Positions 1 to 41,051 of a DNA stretch of 41,051 nucleotides are shown here, piece by piece; position 1 is the stretch's first letter; each line of letters starts with the position of its first letter. The DNA is from a virus (lineage: Duplodnaviria; Heunggongvirae; Uroviricota; Caudoviricetes), in the IMG/VR virus record IMGVR_UViG_2526164667_000035. The stretch is one strand, 5' to 3'. Under the pieces are notes generated by a model. The model had not been told where the DNA came from, did not search any database, and was given only the letters and a program-made list of their open reading frames with translations. Both the position numbers and the translations under genes were made by a program.

Positions 1-286
1 TGGGAAGCGTTGCCTGCGCTTTTATCCGGATTTACAGCAGGGAAAGCCTCCAGTGCGCAAGTCAATAAGGTTATTCGGCAGGCCAGCTTTATTGCTGCAG
101 CTCTGGCCCAGTTTGTAAGTGATAAAACGCAACGGGATGTGCTTGATAATGGTGATCTGCCCGGTTTTGTTGAATTGCTGGGATCGGGGTTTGCTGTTGA
201 ATACCTGAGCCGCAAGAATCCGTTTGGCGATATCAAATCGGATGGCACGGTGAAAACGGCTCTCGAAAACCTTGGTTTGGGAGAAG
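1..286. repeat. Right copy of a long inverted repeat; exact reverse complement of 1878..2163 (runs to the window edge, so true length may be greater)
   Basis: Direct comparison: bases 1..286 equal the reverse complement of 2163..1878 with no mismatch; identity ends at 287/1877. Confidence 0.9.
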
Positions 287-354
287 CCAGATATGTCATT
301 CAGCGAGAGCTAATGCCAATGGTGCGTGGATACGCTGGTCAGATGGTGCAATAG
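10..354 (+). CDS. Partial (5' truncated by window edge) duplicate of the tail-fibre N-terminal constant region carried in the inverted repeat, followed by a 22-codon unrelated tail; probably not an independent gene
   Basis: Translation is identical to residues ~32-119 of the 1387..2247 tail fibre up to GLGE, then diverges (ARYVIQ...) and stops after 22 codons. Confidence 0.45.
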
Positions 355-614
355 AAGTCTTTGGAACGGGGGGTTCTAATGATAATGGACTGGCTAAAGT
401 CGTTTATCCAATTGCGCTACCTAAGCTTTCACGTTTTATCAGCATAGCGGAAAGAATAGGAACGGATTATGGGGGCACATCTAATAACGTTCACGTTTCA
501 ATGATCGTGGATGACCAGGTCACTAATACCGGTTTTTATGTCCGCTGCCAGATGTACGACGGAACACCATCAACAAGTGCTTTTTCCTGGAGGGTTTATT
601 GTGCGCCTGTTTAA
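201..614 (+). pseudogene. Cryptic alternative tail-fibre tip domain (Sv-prime-like), open in a frame offset by one base from the constant region; no ATG start
   Basis: Stop-free frame from 201 to TAA at 612-614 encodes ...[34 protein letters not shown]...QMYDGTPSTSAFSWRVYCAPV, a pattern typical of receptor-binding fibre tips; missing from the ORF track because it has no long M-initiated segment. Confidence 0.4.
260..285. other. Candidate 26-bp DNA-invertase crossover site (hix/gix/cix/pix-like), right copy
   Basis: ctctcgaaaacc-tt-ggtttgggagaa: two imperfect inverted 12-bp half-sites around a 2-bp core, resembling Hin/Gin-family sites as I recall them (half-site ending AAAACC). Sits at the inner end of the inverted repeat. 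Confidence 0.6.
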
Positions 615-798
615 TCCTGTTACTTTGACTGAAGTAATCCCCGGTCTTCATGACGTGACCGGGGCTGTTGAATTACCAGAAGATAACTGGTTTTTTACTG
701 CATCTGAAATCCCTGAAGGAATGGAAATATCTGTTAACGAGAAGGGAGAACCCATTCTGATTGAGATTAAACCGTCTCAGGAGGAACTGGCCAGATGA
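601..798 (+). CDS. Small putative alternative tail-fibre chaperone-like protein (U-prime position), 65 aa from a GTG start
   Basis: GGAGGG Shine-Dalgarno about 7 nt upstream of GTG at 601; convergent with the tfa gene and overlapping its 3' end by 32 bp, as at the centre of Mu G / P1 C segments. Short for a Tfa, so function is uncertain. Confidence 0.35.
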   Translation: MRLFNPVTLTEVIPGLHDVTGAVELPEDNWFFTASEIPEGMEISVNEKGEPILIEIKPSQEELAR

Positions 799-1372
799 CA
801 TCTGGCGCGGTGCTGGTATCTGTTGCCATCACCGCGTCAGTGTAATCCAGCACGGCGTTAAGTCGGGTGTTTTCTGCCTGCGTCAGCTTCCGTCCGGCCT
901 GTAATTTCAGTTGAATCAGACTGATGGAAGCCATTGCTGCATCAATCAGTGACTGGCGCTGTGCTTCTGCCGCTTCTACTGCGGCGCTATGCTGTGCCTC
1001 AGTATTCGTCCCCCATTTCTCACCATCCCATTTATCATATGGCGTTAACGGGGCGATAGTGGTTGTATTTTCAGGGTAATCACCCAGAGCTGTGATTTCT
1101 TTCGATTCTCCTGTTTCAGTGCTATAGATGATTTCACCGCGATGGTCTGGCACATATTCCCATGAGTTAAAATCTGCAGAACGGCAGATTGCATAACCAG
1201 CTTTATGTGTAACTGGTGCATCTAAACAAGAACATGCCGGGATGCCGACGCCAACCGCAAGATATTCAGTTGATGTGGAAAGATATTCCCGCGTCTTGCT
1301 GTCGTAGTTGTATATGACGACTTCACCCGCGACAGTCGCCAGTAGGGCCTCATTCAGTGTGACTGTATTCAT
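767..1372 (-). CDS. tfa: Tail fibre assembly protein (lambda Tfa / Mu U family)
   Basis: C-terminus ...DTSTAPDVIWPVPPETV matches the conserved Tfa C-terminal motif; immediately downstream of the tail fibre gene. Start moved to the internal ATG (MNTVTL...) preceded by GAGGA. Confidence 0.8.
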   Translation of the reverse strand: MNTVTLNEALLATVAGEVVIYNYDSKTREYLSTSTEYLAVGVGIPACSCLDAPVTHKAGYAICRSADFNSWEYVPDHRGEIIYSTETGESKEITALGDYPENTTTIAPLTPYDKWDGEKWGTNTEAQHSAAVEAAEAQRQSLIDAAMASISLIQLKLQAGRKLTQAENTRLNAVLDYTDAVMATDTSTAPDVIWPVPPETV

Positions 1373-1386
1373 GGTATCCTCGCGCA

Positions 1387-2247
1387 TTATGCCGCCCTCA
1401 CGATGTAGTTGAATGCAATATTACGAGGTCTGTTTTCTGTCGCTGTAGGAACAACTCTTGAGACATCCAAATTAGCGTAAATATGACGATCTGTCATAGA
1501 AACTGATGACTTACCAGTAGATTCAGCTTTTATCACAACGGAATCATACATTCCCTCATCATTCCCAAAAAATGCACCAGAGCCATTGCCAAAAAAATAC
1601 AGTGCTGATATTTCATGCCTTGCACCAATTGTCCCCGTGATATTTCTGATTGCATCTCCCTGAGAGTTCAATATAGTTCGGCCCGAATCAACCCCACGCC
1701 CGTCATCCCAGCCGCGAATAAATTCACCGCGTAAATCAGGCAATTTATTTGTCGGGTAAGCCTTTGCCAGTTCCGGGTATTCTTCAGCAGAAAAAGCCGC
1801 ACCATTGCATTTCAGCCAGCCTGTTGGCGGAGTGGCTGAAGGCCACGGAACAGGCACCCCAACAGGTAATGCTGAGCCTTCTCCCAAACCAAGGTTTTCG
1901 AGAGCCGTTTTCACCGTGCCATCCGATTTGATATCGCCAAACGGATTCTTGCGGCTCAGGTATTCAACAGCAAACCCCGATCCCAGCAATTCAACAAAAC
2001 CGGGCAGATCACCATTATCAAGCACATCCCGTTGCGTTTTATCACTTACAAACTGGGCCAGAGCTGCAGCAATAAAGCTGGCCTGCCGAATAACCTTATT
2101 GACTTGCGCACTGGAGGCTTTCCCTGCTGTAAATCCGGATAAAAGCGCAGGCAACGCTTCCCATTCCTCCTGCGACATAACATTGGCATTTTTACCCGTT
2201 GCGAATGCTTTAAAGTCATTTTTTGCCATCAGAGTAATACTCCCCAT
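1387..2247 (-). CDS. Tail fibre protein (constant N-terminal part within the inverted repeat, variable C-terminal tip 1387..1877)
   Basis: 286-aa ORF last in the baseplate operon; C-terminal region ([31 protein letters not shown]...) resembles phage tail-collar / fibre tip domains; followed by tfa. Confidence 0.8.
1878..2163. repeat. Left copy of the inverted repeat, inside the 5' part of the tail fibre gene
   Basis: Perfect reverse-complement match to 1..286. Confidence 0.9.
1879..1904. other. Candidate DNA-invertase crossover site, left copy
   Basis: Reverse complement of the 260..285 site, located within the tail fibre coding sequence at the constant/variable junction (after GLGE). Confidence 0.6.
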
Positions 2248-2251
2248 GCCC

Positions 2252-2908
2252 CTACATCAAAACCACTGATGAATTCGTTATCCATATCAAAACCAAAAAT
2301 TTTGAACCTTCCGATGGGGTTTCCACCGAAGGTGTTTCAATGCCACCCGCCCACACCCCGGCGGCTTTTACTGTGAGATATCCCTGTTTAATTGCAGCAA
2401 TTAACTCACGCGATACATCTGAAATATCAGTATCAGGAAAGACCCAGACCGATATCGTCATGTCCTGGTTATCGACTATCTGCATTCGCAGCCTGGATCC
2501 TGCTGTTGCCGCGTCAAGAATTACCGGAAGCGAATCATTCCGTCCGTCCCAGTTATTAATCGCAATCTTCGCTTTAAGAATGACACGATAAGTTTCATCG
2601 CTGAGATACATGTATCCAGAATCAGGATCATATGGCCCCTGCCATACACCCTGATCATATCCAAGCCCGTCGGTATCCCAGCTGAAATAGACACCTGAAA
2701 TAGGCTGGCTGACAACACGGCTACGTCCGATCCACAATCCCAGAATGTCAAGTTGCACACCAACCGCAGAGTCAATATCAAATGCAGTAATCAGCCCTCT
2801 GGTGGCCGCCGCAACATCAATAAGCGGCCGGGTCATCAGATCAACATGTGCAAGAAATTTAGGTTTGGTGGCGTGGTAGTTCGTGATTAGTTCGGTGTAT
2901 TTGCTCAT
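2252..2908 (-). CDS. Baseplate/tail protein, Mu gp48 / YmfQ (DUF2313)-like
   Basis: 218-aa ORF between the baseplate J-like gene and the tail fibre, the position of Mu gp48; tight packing with neighbours. Confidence 0.55.
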
Positions 2909-4104
2909 GACTCCACCGTTATAACGATATTTTCCGGGGTACAGGACGCAGATTCGTTATATCTGATATCAATGTTTGATGATGACAAAGCCCCCGGGGA
3001 TTTCCCAATCGTCAGTTCCTGAATATCGTAATAGCGTGCATTCCCGCCACTCACCACGCCAAGATTCGCCGGTGAGTAAATGCGACTTAAAAGGACCGAA
3101 TCACCAATCATCAGACTATTGATATAGTCGGAAATAGCCTGCTGGATCTGCTGCCCTATCTGTGAGGTATAACCCGTAAAAACTTTTAATTTAATCCGGG
3201 CATAAACAGGCACATCACTGGAACGCGAGAATTTGATTACATGGGGATTGCCGTATTTATCCGGAACCGTAACGGATGTTGTACCGTGAGTGGCTGTCCC
3301 CTGGCCTTTATTTCCTCTGATAGCCTGAGCAATATCCGTTACATCACCGCCATCCACAATTACAGCAACAGAGTGTGGCGGTAACCCGTTACCGTCCTCC
3401 GAACCAGTATCGTTTTCATAGAGTTTGTGGCGGGTTACACCGGTAACATTAGAAACAGCACCATCCAGTGCTTCAAATGGGGTTATTGATGGCAACGCAA
3501 CACTTTGCGACTGGCGGATACGTAACTCAGCGTCAGTTTCTGCCGGAGTGCCCACAGTAGCCGCAGCAGGATTAGTTACCGAAACCCAGCCACGGGTTGG
3601 CGTATTAATTTCAGTGATAGTTCCAGCCAGCGCCGCCACTGCACCTCTGACGGAACATTTTGCGGTCACCATCACTGTACCATCCACGCCGACCACCACT
3701 GAAGCAGGCAAACGCCATATCACATTATTACTGTCTTTCACGCTGCCATTAATGATGGTTGTTCCGGCAGTTCCTGTAAGAAGCAAATCAACCGTAGAAT
3801 TCGTCGCGCCTTTACGTGAAATACCATTTATTTTCACGTTACTGGTCAATGCAGCCCCATAGCCGGTTGCCGGTGAAAAACAGTTGTAGACAGTTATCGC
3901 CATATTATTGGCATCATGAATCGCCAGCGCCATCAGAGCCACCATCTGGCCGTCTTTGCTGTCCGGTTCGAGGTAGGCATCACTGCCATAAATCTGCTGA
4001 AAATAGCTAATCAGGGTGCTGAGTATCGTCTGATAATCAGGCGCACTGATCCCCTCCGCGGTTACCTTTGCAGATAAACCGAGAGAATCAAGGTTCAGAG
4101 CCAT
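2905..4104 (-). CDS. Baseplate J-like protein (Mu gp47 / P2 J family)
   Basis: 399-aa ORF, 4-bp overlap with downstream gene, conserved position upstream of the fibre genes. Confidence 0.7.
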   Translation of the reverse strand: MALNLDSLGLSAKVTAEGISAPDYQTILSTLISYFQQIYGSDAYLEPDSKDGQMVALMALAIHDANNMAITVYNCFSPATGYGAALTSNVKINGISRKGATNSTVDLLLTGTAGTTIINGSVKDSNNVIWRLPASVVVGVDGTVMVTAKCSVRGAVAALAGTITEINTPTRGWVSVTNPAAATVGTPAETDAELRIRQSQSVALPSITPFEALDGAVSNVTGVTRHKLYENDTGSEDGNGLPPHSVAVIVDGGDVTDIAQAIRGNKGQGTATHGTTSVTVPDKYGNPHVIKFSRSSDVPVYARIKLKVFTGYTSQIGQQIQQAISDYINSLMIGDSVLLSRIYSPANLGVVSGGNARYYDIQELTIGKSPGALSSSNIDIRYNESASCTPENIVITVES

Positions 4105-5271: not shown

Positions 5272-5442
5272 TTATTTTTTCTGTTTAAAATTGTCCAACT
5301 CAGGTTCTTTAACGCTTTCTGTCATGTAATCCAATCCATCAAAAGGTACTTCAAGCATTATACTGCTTTCATAATCAGCCATGGATTGCTCTGCTTGCGT
5401 TGGCTTACTTTGCTGTGAGTTGTCATTATTTGATGTTGTCAT
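5272..5442 (-). CDS. Small acidic hypothetical protein (56 aa), last gene of the AT-rich island
   Basis: ATG..TAA ORF below the ORF-track size cutoff (MTTSNNDNSQQSKPTQAEQSMADYESSIMLEVPFDGLDYMTESVKEPELDNFKQKK); 3 nt downstream of the preceding stop; weak SD. Confidence 0.35.
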   Translation of the reverse strand: MTTSNNDNSQQSKPTQAEQSMADYESSIMLEVPFDGLDYMTESVKEPELDNFKQKK

Positions 5443-5445
5443 CAA

Positions 5446-6001
5446 CTATGCCTTATTTATCAAAAGAAAAGTAACCGATAATATGAAAAAACCGAAAGAT
5501 AACGCAATTCCTTCAAAAAGATAACGAGCATAAACTGCCTTTTCTTTATGAAGACTTTCGATCAATTCAACAGCTTTACCATACTGAAACATATGGTATC
5601 TAAGCGTTTTAATTTTATCACCGTAAAGTAAAAAATCATGCTCTTCTTTTCGCTTATGAGTAGGCATTTTTGGTATATCTTTCAGTCCCCAAGTACGCCA
5701 TAGGAAAAAAAAAGCACATAACAATACAAACAAAGCACAGATATGCACAAAGTATAGATAATGTTAAAAACCAATTACTCTTTAGCCCACTTTTGAAATC
5801 AACAGTCCCAAATACAGCCAGTAGAGCAGAGGTTTCTACAGCTAAAATAGCAAGAAGGTAGTTAACTTTGTCCTCAAGACGACGATATGTTGATTTTGCT
5901 TCCTCATATCTATCTTTATAATATGACGAAATAAAATCAGCGCCTATAGTCTCAATTGCCTTTTGTTCTTCTGTTGTATCTATTGGCGAACGCTTGCTCA
6001 T
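5446..6001 (-). CDS. Hypothetical multi-pass membrane protein, split into two overlapping frames at a T9 homopolymer (frameshifted pseudogene or phase-variable gene)
   Basis: ORFs 5654..6001 and 5446..5748 overlap by 95 nt; both are hydrophobic across the overlap; a run of 9 T (- strand) at 5705..5713 sits at the junction; loss of one T would fuse them into about 184 aa. About 33% GC. Confidence 0.45.
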
Positions 6002-38985: not shown

Positions 38986-39182
38986 GCGAGAAACCCGACG
39001 ATTTACTCACCCCAGATGAAGTATGCCAAAAGTTAGGTATTACACAGAAAACGCTATGTGAGTGGAATATTAAGCATCGTCATCGGGCTATCCTGGCACC
39101 AATTCGTTTCAGTGCAAAAGTAGTTCGTTATGAGCGCCGAAATGTCGACGCTTTTATTCAAAAGTGTCGCAGCCAGTATTAA
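38982..39182 (+). CDS. Excisionase / AlpA-like HTH protein
   Basis: 66-aa ORF with HTH-like segment (LTPDEVCQKLGITQKTLCEW); ATGA overlap with the helicase stop; adjacent to the integrase. Confidence 0.5.
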   Translation: MSEKPDDLLTPDEVCQKLGITQKTLCEWNIKHRHRAILAPIRFSAKVVRYERRNVDAFIQKCRSQY

Positions 39183-40582
39183 CCTCGCCGCCGTAGCAAT
39201 GCAACCTGCGCAAGTATGCTCCGCTCGTGAGCCTCGAAAGCTTCGCGCTTTAACGCAATCTCTTCCTGTAAAATCTCATCAGAAAAGTCGTAATGTTCTG
39301 CCATCGGGTCATCTGACTTGCTGGAGTGGTGAAGGCAAAGGAGGCTGATTTCCCTTCGGTCTGATCGGGAATAGCCTCTTTCCTTCATTAAGGCAATAAC
39401 ATTGCTCTTAAAGAATTTACGGCACATCGTATTAAATGCACCGTCTTTCCCTTTAACAGTCCCATCATGTTTTATTCCTTTTACAGCCCCGTCCGGGCTG
39501 TATGTTTTCACCAGCTTATCCAGTGATCGTTTTGAAAATGGCTGCATTGGATCACGTGGCTGCAAAAATACATAATCCCTGTTGCACTCAGGAACTGAAT
39601 CACGCCAGGCTTTCTGCTCGTCGATAATCCGCCGGATCTCAGGCGTTATCGGCAGGCGGAAAGCCTTTTGTGTTTTCATAGCCCCTCGCATGCCGATAAC
39701 CCCTTCCGGATAAACAATTTCACCAGCCTCCTCGTGAACGTAGTCCCAGCGCAGGTTATGGACATTAATCGGACGAACGCCAGTGATGATCATGAAGCGA
39801 ACAGCATTCTTCTGGTGTACAGAGGTGCAGGCAGCAACATTGAGCCAGAGTCGGGCGATTGATTCAATATCGGTAAAAAGCCGTGTGGGGGTAGGTTTCT
39901 GTACGCGGGAGGAAACATAATCATCTGGCAGACTGGCGGCAACATTGCGGCCGTTGCAAAGAGTAGGTGCGCAGAACTTCCAGAACCGACGGAGCTCGGC
40001 AAACAACTCCAGGGCGTTATTGTTCGAGCGAGTGGCGATCCACTCGTCCAGCACTTCCACCAGCCGATTGTATGTTACGTCGCTGAACACCTCACGCTCG
40101 CCGAACGTTGCTTTAATCCGGTTGATACGCACCCCGTAGGTTGTGAAACTGTCCGGGCTCAGCTTCTGCCGGGCGACTTTGGCTTTGAGGTCATCCCGGT
40201 ACATTTCCAGCGCTGCATGTACGGACTCTGCCCGCAAGCCACAGTCAGCCATACCTAGCGCTTTTTCGCGCGCCAGCTGGATAGCGAGCTCCGGCCACTC
40301 GCCGAGCTTTTTACCCTTGAGGCCCATCTTTTTTGGAAACTCGGCGTAAAATGTAACCTTACCGGCTTTGCTGAAATCGATACGGAGATAGTTCTCTTTT
40401 TCGTATTTGGAACGGCGAGCCACGCCGGAAGCAGCGAGGATGATTTTGGCGGCAGCAACACAGATTTTCATGTGTGCGCTGGTATAGGGGGGTTTACAGG
40501 CGTCCCATTTTTCAGATGCGGCTAAAACATCGTCATTATTGGGGCTATCCGGATTATGTGTTACAGTGCGCGGCATTCTCAA
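39179..40582 (-). CDS. int: Tyrosine-type site-specific integrase
   Basis: C-terminal catalytic region with TGVRP (Arg box) and LCLHHSSKSDDPMAEHY, resembling the lambda Int LLGHKSDTMASQY segment with the catalytic Tyr; at the prophage edge beside a host gene. Confidence 0.7.
   Translation of the reverse strand: MRMPRTVTHNPDSPNNDDVLAASEKWDACKPPYTSAHMKICVAAAKIILAASGVARRSKYEKENYLRIDFSKAGKVTFYAEFPKKMGLKGKKLGEWPELAIQLAREKALGMADCGLRAESVHAALEMYRDDLKAKVARQKLSPDSFTTYGVRINRIKATFGEREVFSDVTYNRLVEVLDEWIATRSNNNALELFAELRRFWKFCAPTLCNGRNVAASLPDDYVSSRVQKPTPTRLFTDIESIARLWLNVAACTSVHQKNAVRFMIITGVRPINVHNLRWDYVHEEAGEIVYPEGVIGMRGAMKTQKAFRLPITPEIRRIIDEQKAWRDSVPECNRDYVFLQPRDPMQPFSKRSLDKLVKTYSPDGAVKGIKHDGTVKGKDGAFNTMCRKFFKSNVIALMKERGYSRSDRREISLLCLHHSSKSDDPMAEHYDFSDEILQEEIALKREAFEAHERSILAQVALLRRRG

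Positions 40583-40781: not shown

Positions 40782-41051
<270 letters not shown>

What the first reader, a model, noticed from the sequence alone, without database searches (positions are those of the whole stretch)
201..614. Alternative fibre tip domain is out of frame with the constant region
After the inverted repeat, the frame continuous with the fibre constant region runs only 22 codons (ARYVIQ...) before a stop. A frame offset by one base is open for about 137 codons and encodes a convincing fibre-tip-like sequence ([18 protein letters not shown]...). So the inverted orientation would give a truncated fibre unless one base is gained or lost near 287-300. This could be a decayed alternative receptor specificity, a sequencing indel, or a locked switch.
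Basis: seen in the sequence. Interest (0 to 1): 0.5.

Follow-up and report, generated by a model that had tools for sequence, protein, structure and literature searches.

The report
One-base gap in spare tail-fibre tip
The out-of-frame "alternative fibre tip" is the spare arm of an ordinary Pin-type invertible tail-fibre switch in an E. coli prophage; its frame is broken by one missing G seen only in this 2012 draft assembly, so it is either a base-calling error or a very recent private mutation.

Summary
After the repeat, the constant-region frame stops after 22 codons, and another frame is open over 201-614.

- **Cause:** one missing G (GG→G at window 307; CAGCGAGAGCT versus CAGCGAGGAGCT). 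With the G restored, the flipped fibre reads ...[22 protein letters not shown]... and is 226 aa, as annotated in strain DX6.
- **How private it is:** no other copy examined has the gap. That covers 110 complete E. coli genomes, 9 viral contigs, four draft relatives and 32 protein clusters.
- **Source:** the window is bases 1-41051 of contig AIGN01000051.1 (E. coli DEC9D), and position 1 is the contig end.
- **The 286-bp perfect repeat is not biological.** Relatives have only a 20-nt imperfect repeat, with an invertase gene where the window has a second constant-region copy. The window carries both constant|Sv and constant|Sv' junctions, so it mixes both orientations. That argues against a locked switch.
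- **The crossover sites** are identical to those of the e14 P segment.

I cannot decide between error and real mutation without reads. I lean towards error (about 0.6), because every indel in this assembly is a homopolymer-length change and a second assembly of the same strain disagrees only by indels. Interest is low.

The parts
1..259 (+). Second, inverted copy of the fibre constant region (codons ~23-108). It is the constant-side flank of the flipped-state junction, appended at the contig end.
   Evidence: 100% reverse-complement of 1905-2163. Window position 1 is contig position 1 of AIGN01000051.1. Near-identical prophages L013/L014 have a 184-aa invertase here instead.
260..285 (+). Pin-type 26-bp crossover site CTCTCGAAAACC|TT|GGTTTGGGAGAA. 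It has the constant-side outer half-site (C at 271) and central TT at 272-273, and encodes ALENLGLGE.
   Evidence: Junction table. Identical half-sites in e14 of K-12. The e14 repeat TTGGTTTGGGAGAAGG is reported in PMC12529663. Only 2 such sites in the window, against 0.02 expected by chance.
286..614 (+). Alternative fibre tip Sv' (109 aa when repaired). It lies in frame 1 for 286-306 (ARYVIQR) and in frame 3 from 309 (ANANGAW...CAPV, stop 612-614).
   Evidence: Apart from the missing G, identical to L013/L014 over 287-1010.
306..308 (+). Site of the one-base loss: CGA-GAG here, CGA-GGA-G in every other copy (GG→G at 307).
   Evidence: Alignment A1. Pairwise difference lists. Allele counts.
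601..798 (+). 65-aa ORF (GTG start) that follows and overlaps the tip; possibly a shortened alternative fibre chaperone.
   Evidence: An identical protein, WP_001236015.1, is annotated in three complete genomes. phrog_5400 positions 1-66 of 145 (E 2.6e-23); weak match to tail-fibre-assembly phrog_188. No Pfam family.
767..1372 (-). Tail fibre assembly protein (201 aa) of the expressed arm.
   Evidence: Pfam Caudo_TAP, E 4.9e-30. 85% identical to e14 TfaE.
1387..1878 (-). Expressed variable tip Sv (163 aa, tail-collar domain).
   Evidence: Pfam Collar, E 2.5e-15. 58% identical to the e14 StfE fragment. Product computed.
1879..1904 (-). Second crossover site, the constant|Sv junction, identical to 260-285.
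1905..2229 (-). Fibre constant region of the genuine gene (ATG at 2229; 117 aa up to and including GLGE).
   Evidence: The exact 280-aa product is on record in 87 collection blocks.

Best explanation
**What it is.** Window 260-1904 is a two-state, Pin-type invertible tail-fibre cassette of a prophage. The prophage lies between the yfhH side and yfhL in E. coli DEC9D.

**How it works.** The fibre gene runs leftwards from 2229. Its first 117 codons are constant and end in the crossover site (...ENLGLGE).
- As assembled, the constant part continues into a collar-domain tip (Sv) followed by a Caudo_TAP chaperone.
- Inversion between the two 26-bp sites would join the constant part to the other tip (Sv', 286-614), which is followed by a 65-aa ORF.

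**Why the frame is off.** One G is missing (GG→G at 307). With it, the flipped fibre is a normal 226-aa protein. Without it, the product is 139 aa and has no tip.

**Status of the missing base.** It is private to this one draft assembly. I judge it more likely a base-calling or consensus error near a troublesome contig end than a real mutation.

**The 286-bp perfect inverted repeat** is not part of the element. The assembler walked through the cassette and out through the junction of the other orientation. This means the sequenced culture held both orientations.

**Shown:** the anatomy, the position of the indel, its uniqueness, and the chimeric contig end.
**Inferred:** that it is an error rather than a mutation, and that inversion was active in the culture.
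For: **Indel position**
- Alignment with DX6, FDN-9 and 97-3250 shows CAGCGA-GAGCT versus CAGCGAGGAGCT.
- The same single difference appears against L013/L014 at 99.9% identity and against L025 at 97.8% identity, caught in the flipped state.

**Uniqueness**
- 0 of 110 complete E. coli genomes with this tip reach 99% identity to the window allele, and every listed hit spans 82 nt for the 81-nt probe.
- All 9 IMG/VR matches are the 35-nt intact form.
- The 114-aa and 37-aa ORFs created by the frameshift are on record only in AIGN01000051.1.
- R41 and G42 are invariant in 12 homologues down to 57% identity.
- The tip is in frame with LGLGE in at least four different constant-region contexts.

**Repair**
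- The repaired product is 226 aa, the same length as the DX6 annotation.

**Chimeric contig end**
- Window position 1 is contig position 1.
- Relatives have a 20-nt, 95% repeat and an invertase next to the cassette.
- The window has constant|Sv' and constant|Sv junctions, both with the constant-side C at 271, and no invertase-side junction.
- An independent Logan contig of run SRR094968 stops at exactly the last base the two junctions share.

**Lean towards error**
- All three indels against close relatives are homopolymer-length changes (307 GG, 2295-2299 A-run, 5705-5713 A-run), alongside only 3-4 substitutions.
- The two assemblies of this strain differ by 2 indels and 0 substitutions in 9 kb. 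At 5280 the Logan contig is the odd one out, so the reads are indel-prone.
- The rest of the tip is identical to L013/L014, with no other sign of decay.
- Another assembly of the same project (DEC14C, P0021) has a frameshift in its copy of this tip.
Against: - Window 6101-41051 has no indel at all against two other strains' assemblies. The consensus is therefore generally good, and a miscall of a 2-base run is an unusual consensus error unless coverage was low there.
- Position 307 lies inside the cassette, where reads of both orientations should contribute.
- The second private indel (A6→A5 at 2299) also appears in the Logan assembly of SRR094968. That is compatible with real mutations in this strain, although the two assemblies probably share reads.
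- I could not read the genome announcement, so the sequencing platform is unverified.
Confidence: 0.6

Rival explanations
1. The G is really missing in DEC9D: a recent private frameshift that inactivates the spare tip. The switch would then alternate between a working fibre and a 139-aa tipless one. The 127-aa ORF formed by the invertase-side leader plus the tip would also be lost.
For: - The sequence as deposited says so.
- The assembly is free of indels over 35 kb.
- A second private frameshift lies 2 kb away, in the DUF2612 baseplate gene, and is reproduced in the Logan assembly. This could indicate a decaying tail module.
- Other genomes show independent frameshifts in this tip (P0021, P0022).
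- Strain 97-3250 has a truncated invertase, so decay of such switches does occur.
Against: - No other decay in the tip: 287-1010 is otherwise identical to L013/L014.
- The ratio of indels to substitutions is far too high for real divergence: 3 indels to 3-4 substitutions here, against 2 indels (both the window's own) to 73 substitutions versus L025.
- All the indels are homopolymer contractions or expansions, and the reads are demonstrably indel-prone.
- The site is 307 nt from a chimeric contig end.
Confidence: 0.36
2. The switch is locked: the 286-bp repeat is a real inverted duplication of the constant region, or inversion no longer happens, and the spare tip decays because it is never used.
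For: As deposited, the window shows a perfect 286-bp inverted repeat and contains no invertase gene.
Against: - The repeat ends only because the contig ends.
- All relatives have a 20-nt repeat and an intact 184-aa invertase beside the cassette.
- Having both junction types in one assembly requires DNA of both orientations.
- The Logan contig breaks at the exact branch point.
- Clonal E. coli cultures are known to hold both orientations of such segments (PMC4272514).
Confidence: 0.03
3. The offset is functional: programmed ribosomal frameshifting or transcriptional slippage restores the tip during expression.
For: None beyond the offset itself.
Against: - The offset is not conserved: every other copy is in frame.
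- The site CGAGAG is not a slippery sequence (read directly from the sequence).
Confidence: 0.01

Closest known systems
P segment of cryptic prophage e14 in E. coli K-12 (stfP-tfaP / tfaE-stfE, invertase PinE)
   Same: - The crossover sites are identical on both sides: CTCTCGAAAACC|TT|GGTTTGGGAGAA on the constant side and TTTTCATAAACG|TT|GGTTTGGGAGAA on the invertase side (repeat also given in PMC12529663).
- Same layout: two convergent tip-plus-chaperone arms, with the invertase next to the cassette in relatives.
- The window's Tfa is 85% identical to TfaE, and its Sv 58% identical to the StfE fragment.
   Different: - The other arm is a different module. The window's tip has no BLASTP similarity to the StfP tip, and the 65-aa ORF is not TfaP.
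- The host phage differs: baseplate genes DUF2612, Baseplate_J, and E217/phiTE-like tail genes.
- The window's copy has the one-base gap.
- The cassette is about 1.6 kb, against 1797 bp in e14.
G segment of phage Mu (Gin; S/U versus S'/U')
   Same: Same principle, from established knowledge: a serine invertase flips a cassette so that a constant fibre N-terminus is joined to one of two C-terminal tips, each with its own assembly protein. This changes host range.
   Different: In Mu the constant part is most of the fibre, whereas here it is only 117 aa. The site sequence is of the pix type rather than gix. No sequence comparison with Mu was made here.
C segment of phage P1 (Cin), which has long (about 0.6 kb) inverted repeats
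   Same: As deposited, the window's 286-bp perfect repeat resembles the long repeats that flank the P1 C segment (established knowledge).
   Different: Here the long repeat is an assembly product. The crossover sites sit at its inner ends, and relatives have only 20 nt of repeat.

Membership tests
Pin/Gin/Cin/Hin-type invertible tail-fibre switch | Two inverted ~26-bp crossover sites with the conserved AAACC-NN-GGTTT core | tested here: met
   Sites at 260-285 and 1879-1904, identical to the e14 sites. 2 found in the window against 0.02 expected.
Pin/Gin/Cin/Hin-type invertible tail-fibre switch | Serine (resolvase-family) invertase gene adjacent to the cassette | tested here: inconclusive
   Absent from the window, because the contig ends in the junction. 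Present directly beside the cassette in 99.9%-identical prophages L013/L014 (184 aa; Resolvase plus HTH_7; phrog_125 DNA invertase, E 8.7e-96) and in DX6 (annotated pinE).
Pin/Gin/Cin/Hin-type invertible tail-fibre switch | Constant fibre N-terminus outside the cassette; two alternative C-terminal tips inside, on opposite strands, each in frame with the site | tested here: met
   Met for the family. In this window one arm is in frame. The other is off by one base because of the missing G.
Pin/Gin/Cin/Hin-type invertible tail-fibre switch | Both orientations occur, with exchange at the central dinucleotide | tested here: met
   L013, L014 and 97-3250 are in one orientation; DX6 and L025 are in the other. 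The C/G difference at the last outer half-site base stays with the outer flank. Both constant-side junctions occur in this one assembly.
Pin/Gin/Cin/Hin-type invertible tail-fibre switch | Fis-bound recombinational enhancer within or near the invertase gene | not tested
   The invertase region is outside the window and no enhancer scan was made in the relatives.
Gp53-like C-terminal fibre-tip domain (Pfam PF21882) | Score above the Pfam gathering threshold | tested here: not met
   The repaired tip scores 17.8 bits (E 0.005) against a cut-off of 24.9. It does match the C-terminal end of phrog_2557 (E 2e-16) and, weakly, three tail-fibre PHROGs. The fold check failed, with mean pLDDT 49.9. So it works as a fibre tip by position, but membership of PF21882 is not shown.

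The most novel reading that the evidence does not exclude
The missing G is real, and inversion is active in DEC9D. In this strain a host-range switch would then have become an on/off switch: one orientation gives virions with a complete fibre, the other gives virions with a 139-aa tipless stub. The same lesion would remove the 127-aa ORF made of the invertase-side leader plus the tip. That ORF has the same architecture as e14 StfE2, which a 2025 paper reports as blocking phage T2 adsorption (PMC12529663).
Probability: 0.3. Interest if true: 0.2.

Novelty: already known. Interest (0 to 1): 0.1.

Why it matters
It matters little for biology. Pin-type fibre switches and decayed or mis-called spare arms are familiar.

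The practical lessons concern annotation:
1. Invertible segments in mixed cultures can make assemblers append the other orientation's junction at a contig end. This creates a false long inverted repeat and hides the invertase gene.
2. A frame offset in such a place should be checked against relatives and reads before it is called a pseudogene.

If the deletion proved real, it would be one strain-specific example of a host-range switch degraded into an on/off switch.

Tried and rejected
- **GTDB species representatives:** a scan for either allele found nothing. This is uninformative, because E. coli has only one representative there.
- **Exact look-ups:** the 286-aa fibre version and the edge-truncated 117-aa product were not on record. 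The 280-aa version worked.
- **Structure:** AlphaFold of an intact homologue (P0002) with a 12-sequence alignment gave mean pLDDT 49.9. That is too poor for a fold search, so none was run.
- **DH5alpha hit (H90):** expected to be e14, but it is a P2-like prophage with an IS3 element inside the cassette.
- **True e14 from MG1655:** its StfP tip shows no BLASTP similarity to the window's tip. The tip is therefore not the StfP/StfE2 domain itself.
- **Genome announcement:** Hazen et al. 2012 (PMC3370608) is not held, and searches for the platform found nothing. A pyrosequencing-type platform is my inference from indel-only disagreements, not a documented fact.
- **Second view of position 307:** looking up the window's Tfa returned only the NCBI contig, not the cassette contig of SRR094968.
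- **Programmed frameshifting:** rejected because the offset is not conserved.
- **Third crossover site (shufflon):** rejected, since only two sites are found with up to 3 mismatches.

Full report
**1. The observation**

Window 1-286 is a perfect reverse-complement of 1878-2163. Translating frame 1 gives the fibre constant region up to ...[11 protein letters not shown], then [22 protein letters not shown] and a stop at 352-354. Frame 3 has no stop between 201 and 614 and contains [18 protein letters not shown]...SWRVYCAPV.

**2. Anatomy**

- On the minus strand a 280-aa fibre gene runs from 2229 to 1387. It has a Collar domain (E 2.5e-15).
- A Caudo_TAP assembly protein follows at 1372-767. A DUF2612 baseplate gene lies upstream at 2908-2252.
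- The fibre's first 117 residues end in GLGE.
- Window 260-285 reads CTCTCGAAAACC|TT|GGTTTGGGAGAA, and the same site in inverse orientation lies at 1879-1904.
- These are the only two such sites in the window, even allowing three mismatches (0.02 expected by chance).
- Between the sites lie two convergent arms: Sv plus Tfa on the minus strand, and the frameshifted tip plus a 65-aa ORF (601-798) on the plus strand.

**3. Where the frame breaks**

I aligned the window with three complete genomes that carry the same cassette: DX6, FDN-9 and 97-3250. The window reads CAGCGA-GAGCT where all three read CAGCGAGGAGCT. One G of a GG pair is missing at position 307.

- ARYVIQR (286-306) is therefore genuine, and genuine sequence resumes in frame 3 at 309.
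- Restoring the G gives ...[25 protein letters not shown]...CAPV and a flipped-state fibre of 226 aa.
- That matches the length and sequence pattern of the protein annotated in DX6, where the same phage type sits in the other orientation.
- In FDN-9 the same tip is the in-frame C-terminus of a P2-type fibre.

**4. How widespread is the gap?**

It was found nowhere else.

- An 81-nt probe centred on the site hits 110 complete E. coli genomes. None reaches 99% identity, and every listed hit spans 82 nt.
- Nine IMG/VR contigs all have the longer, intact form.
- L013 and L014, draft genomes with the same prophage at 99.9% identity, have GG.
- L025, a relative 2.2% diverged and caught in the flipped state, also has GG. 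Against 73 substitutions, its only two indels relative to the window are the window's own two contractions.
- Protein homologues fall in 32 clusters. In 12 aligned members, down to 57% identity, R and G at this spot are invariant.
- The tip is joined in frame through LGLGE to at least four unrelated constant regions, and to the short invertase-side leader.
- The 114-aa and 37-aa ORFs that exist only because of the frameshift are on record in one contig only.

**5. Provenance and the long repeat**

Those look-ups identify the window as bases 1-41051 of AIGN01000051.1 in GCA_000249955.2. Window position 1 is contig position 1. A strain table in PMC5592225 assigns AIGN to E. coli DEC9D (O26:H11, Denmark 1967).

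- In L013/L014 the cassette is flanked by a 20-nt, 95% repeat, not by 286 nt.
- Its far side abuts a 184-aa resolvase-family protein that matches the DNA-invertase PHROG at E 8.7e-96. Two small genes and yfhH follow.

The junction table settles the matter. The constant-side half-site ends in C (AAACC TT) and the invertase-side half-site ends in G (AAACG TT).

| Source | AAACC TT (constant side) joined to | AAACG TT (invertase side) joined to |
|---|---|---|
| L013, L014, 97-3250 | Sv | Sv' |
| DX6 | Sv' | Sv |
| Window | both Sv and Sv' | no such junction |

One molecule cannot carry both constant-side junctions unless the constant region is duplicated. The simpler reading is that the DNA preparation held both orientations, and the assembler left the cassette through the flipped-state junction until the contig ended.

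An independent Logan assembly of run SRR094968 has no substitutions against the window over 9 kb. Its contig stops at exactly the last base shared by the two junctions, as expected at a graph branch. Clonal E. coli cultures holding both orientations of the e14 segment have been documented by sequencing and PCR (PMC4272514). The switch is therefore probably active, not locked.

**6. Error or mutation?**

*For an error*
- Against L013/L014 the window shows 3-4 substitutions and three indels in 8 kb. All three are homopolymer-length changes: GG at 307, A5 versus A6 at 2295-2299, and an A-run of 9 versus 8 or 10 at 5705-5713.
- The two assemblies of this strain disagree only by indels. At 5280 the Logan contig is the odd one out, so the reads themselves are indel-prone.
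- The tip shows no other damage.
- The site is 307 nt from a chimeric contig end, where depth is often low.
- DEC14C, from the same project, has a frameshift elsewhere in its copy of this tip.

*For a real mutation*
- Window 6101-41051 has no indel at all against two other strains.
- A two-base run is an uncommon place for a consensus error.
- The A5 allele at 2299 is reproduced in the Logan assembly, though probably from the same reads.

I could not read the genome announcement. That the platform was a pyrosequencing type is my inference. I put error at about 0.6 and real mutation at about 0.35.

**7. Comparison with known systems**

- The e14 P segment of K-12 has exactly the same two outer half-sites and the same inner half-site. 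Its repeat is quoted as TTGGTTTGGGAGAAGG in PMC12529663.
- The window's Tfa is 85% identical to TfaE, and its Sv 58% identical to the StfE fragment.
- The frameshifted tip is a different module from the StfP tip, with no BLASTP match.
- Against Pfam Gp53-like_C it scores below threshold: 17.8 bits against a cut-off of 24.9.
- It does match the C-terminal end of phrog_2557 at E 2e-16.
- A structure model was too poor to use.
- By mechanism this is the same kind of switch as Mu G/Gin and P1 C/Cin (established knowledge). The resemblance to P1's long repeats is an artefact here.

**8. Verdict**

The cause is one missing G, private to one 2012 draft contig, in the spare arm of a well-known kind of fibre switch. 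The long inverted repeat is an assembly chimera that incidentally shows the switch was flipping. The finding is ordinary and of low interest.

Noticed in passing
window 2295-2299 (in DUF2612 gene 2252-2908, minus strand): An A-run of 5 where L013, L014 and L025 have 6. This shortens the baseplate-wedge protein from 226 to 218 aa, gives it a different tail, and removes its overlap with the fibre start codon. The 218-aa product is on record only for DEC9D (the NCBI contig and the Logan assembly of SRR094968). It is a second private frameshift, 2 kb from the first.
   Followed up: partly
window 5705-5713 (gene split into 5654-6001 and 5446-5667, minus strand): An A-run of 9 inside a 184-aa membrane-like gene embedded in the tail module.
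- L013 has 8 and an intact gene.
- L014 has 10 and a split gene.
- The Logan assembly of DEC9D has 9 plus a compensating 1-nt loss at 5702, and an intact gene.

This is either a hypervariable tract or repeated miscalls.
   Followed up: partly
window 601-798: The 65-aa ORF after the tip covers only positions 1-66 of the 145-position phrog_5400, and only weakly resembles fibre-assembly proteins. It looks like a shortened alternative chaperone. Even so, the identical protein (WP_001236015.1) is kept in FDN-9, DX6 and 97-3250.
   Followed up: partly
L013:7616-7999 (minus); equivalent to window ~260-614 joined to the invertase-side flank: In unflipped genomes the invertase-side leader plus this tip forms a 126/127-aa ORF (P0001, MMPVSCNLCIFLNVGLGE plus the tip; 87 member sequences). 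It has the same architecture as e14 StfE2, which PMC12529663 reports as blocking T2 adsorption. The so-called silent arm may therefore not be silent.
   Followed up: no
L002:3673-3939 (E. coli 97-3250): In this complete genome the recombinase next to the same cassette is annotated as incomplete, missing its C-terminus. This is a candidate for a truly locked switch in a relative.
   Followed up: no
L023:3869-5046 (record labelled DH5alpha, NZ_CP026085.1): An IS3-family transposase is inserted in the cassette between this tip and the 65-aa ORF, in a P2-like prophage. That is unexpected for a record labelled DH5alpha.
   Followed up: no
window 40790-41051: The window ends exactly at the stop codon of a host ferredoxin gene (yfhL-type, 86 aa; Fer4 in L017). 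An integrase-like gene lies at 39179-40582 next to it. This fixes the prophage's right boundary.
   Followed up: partly
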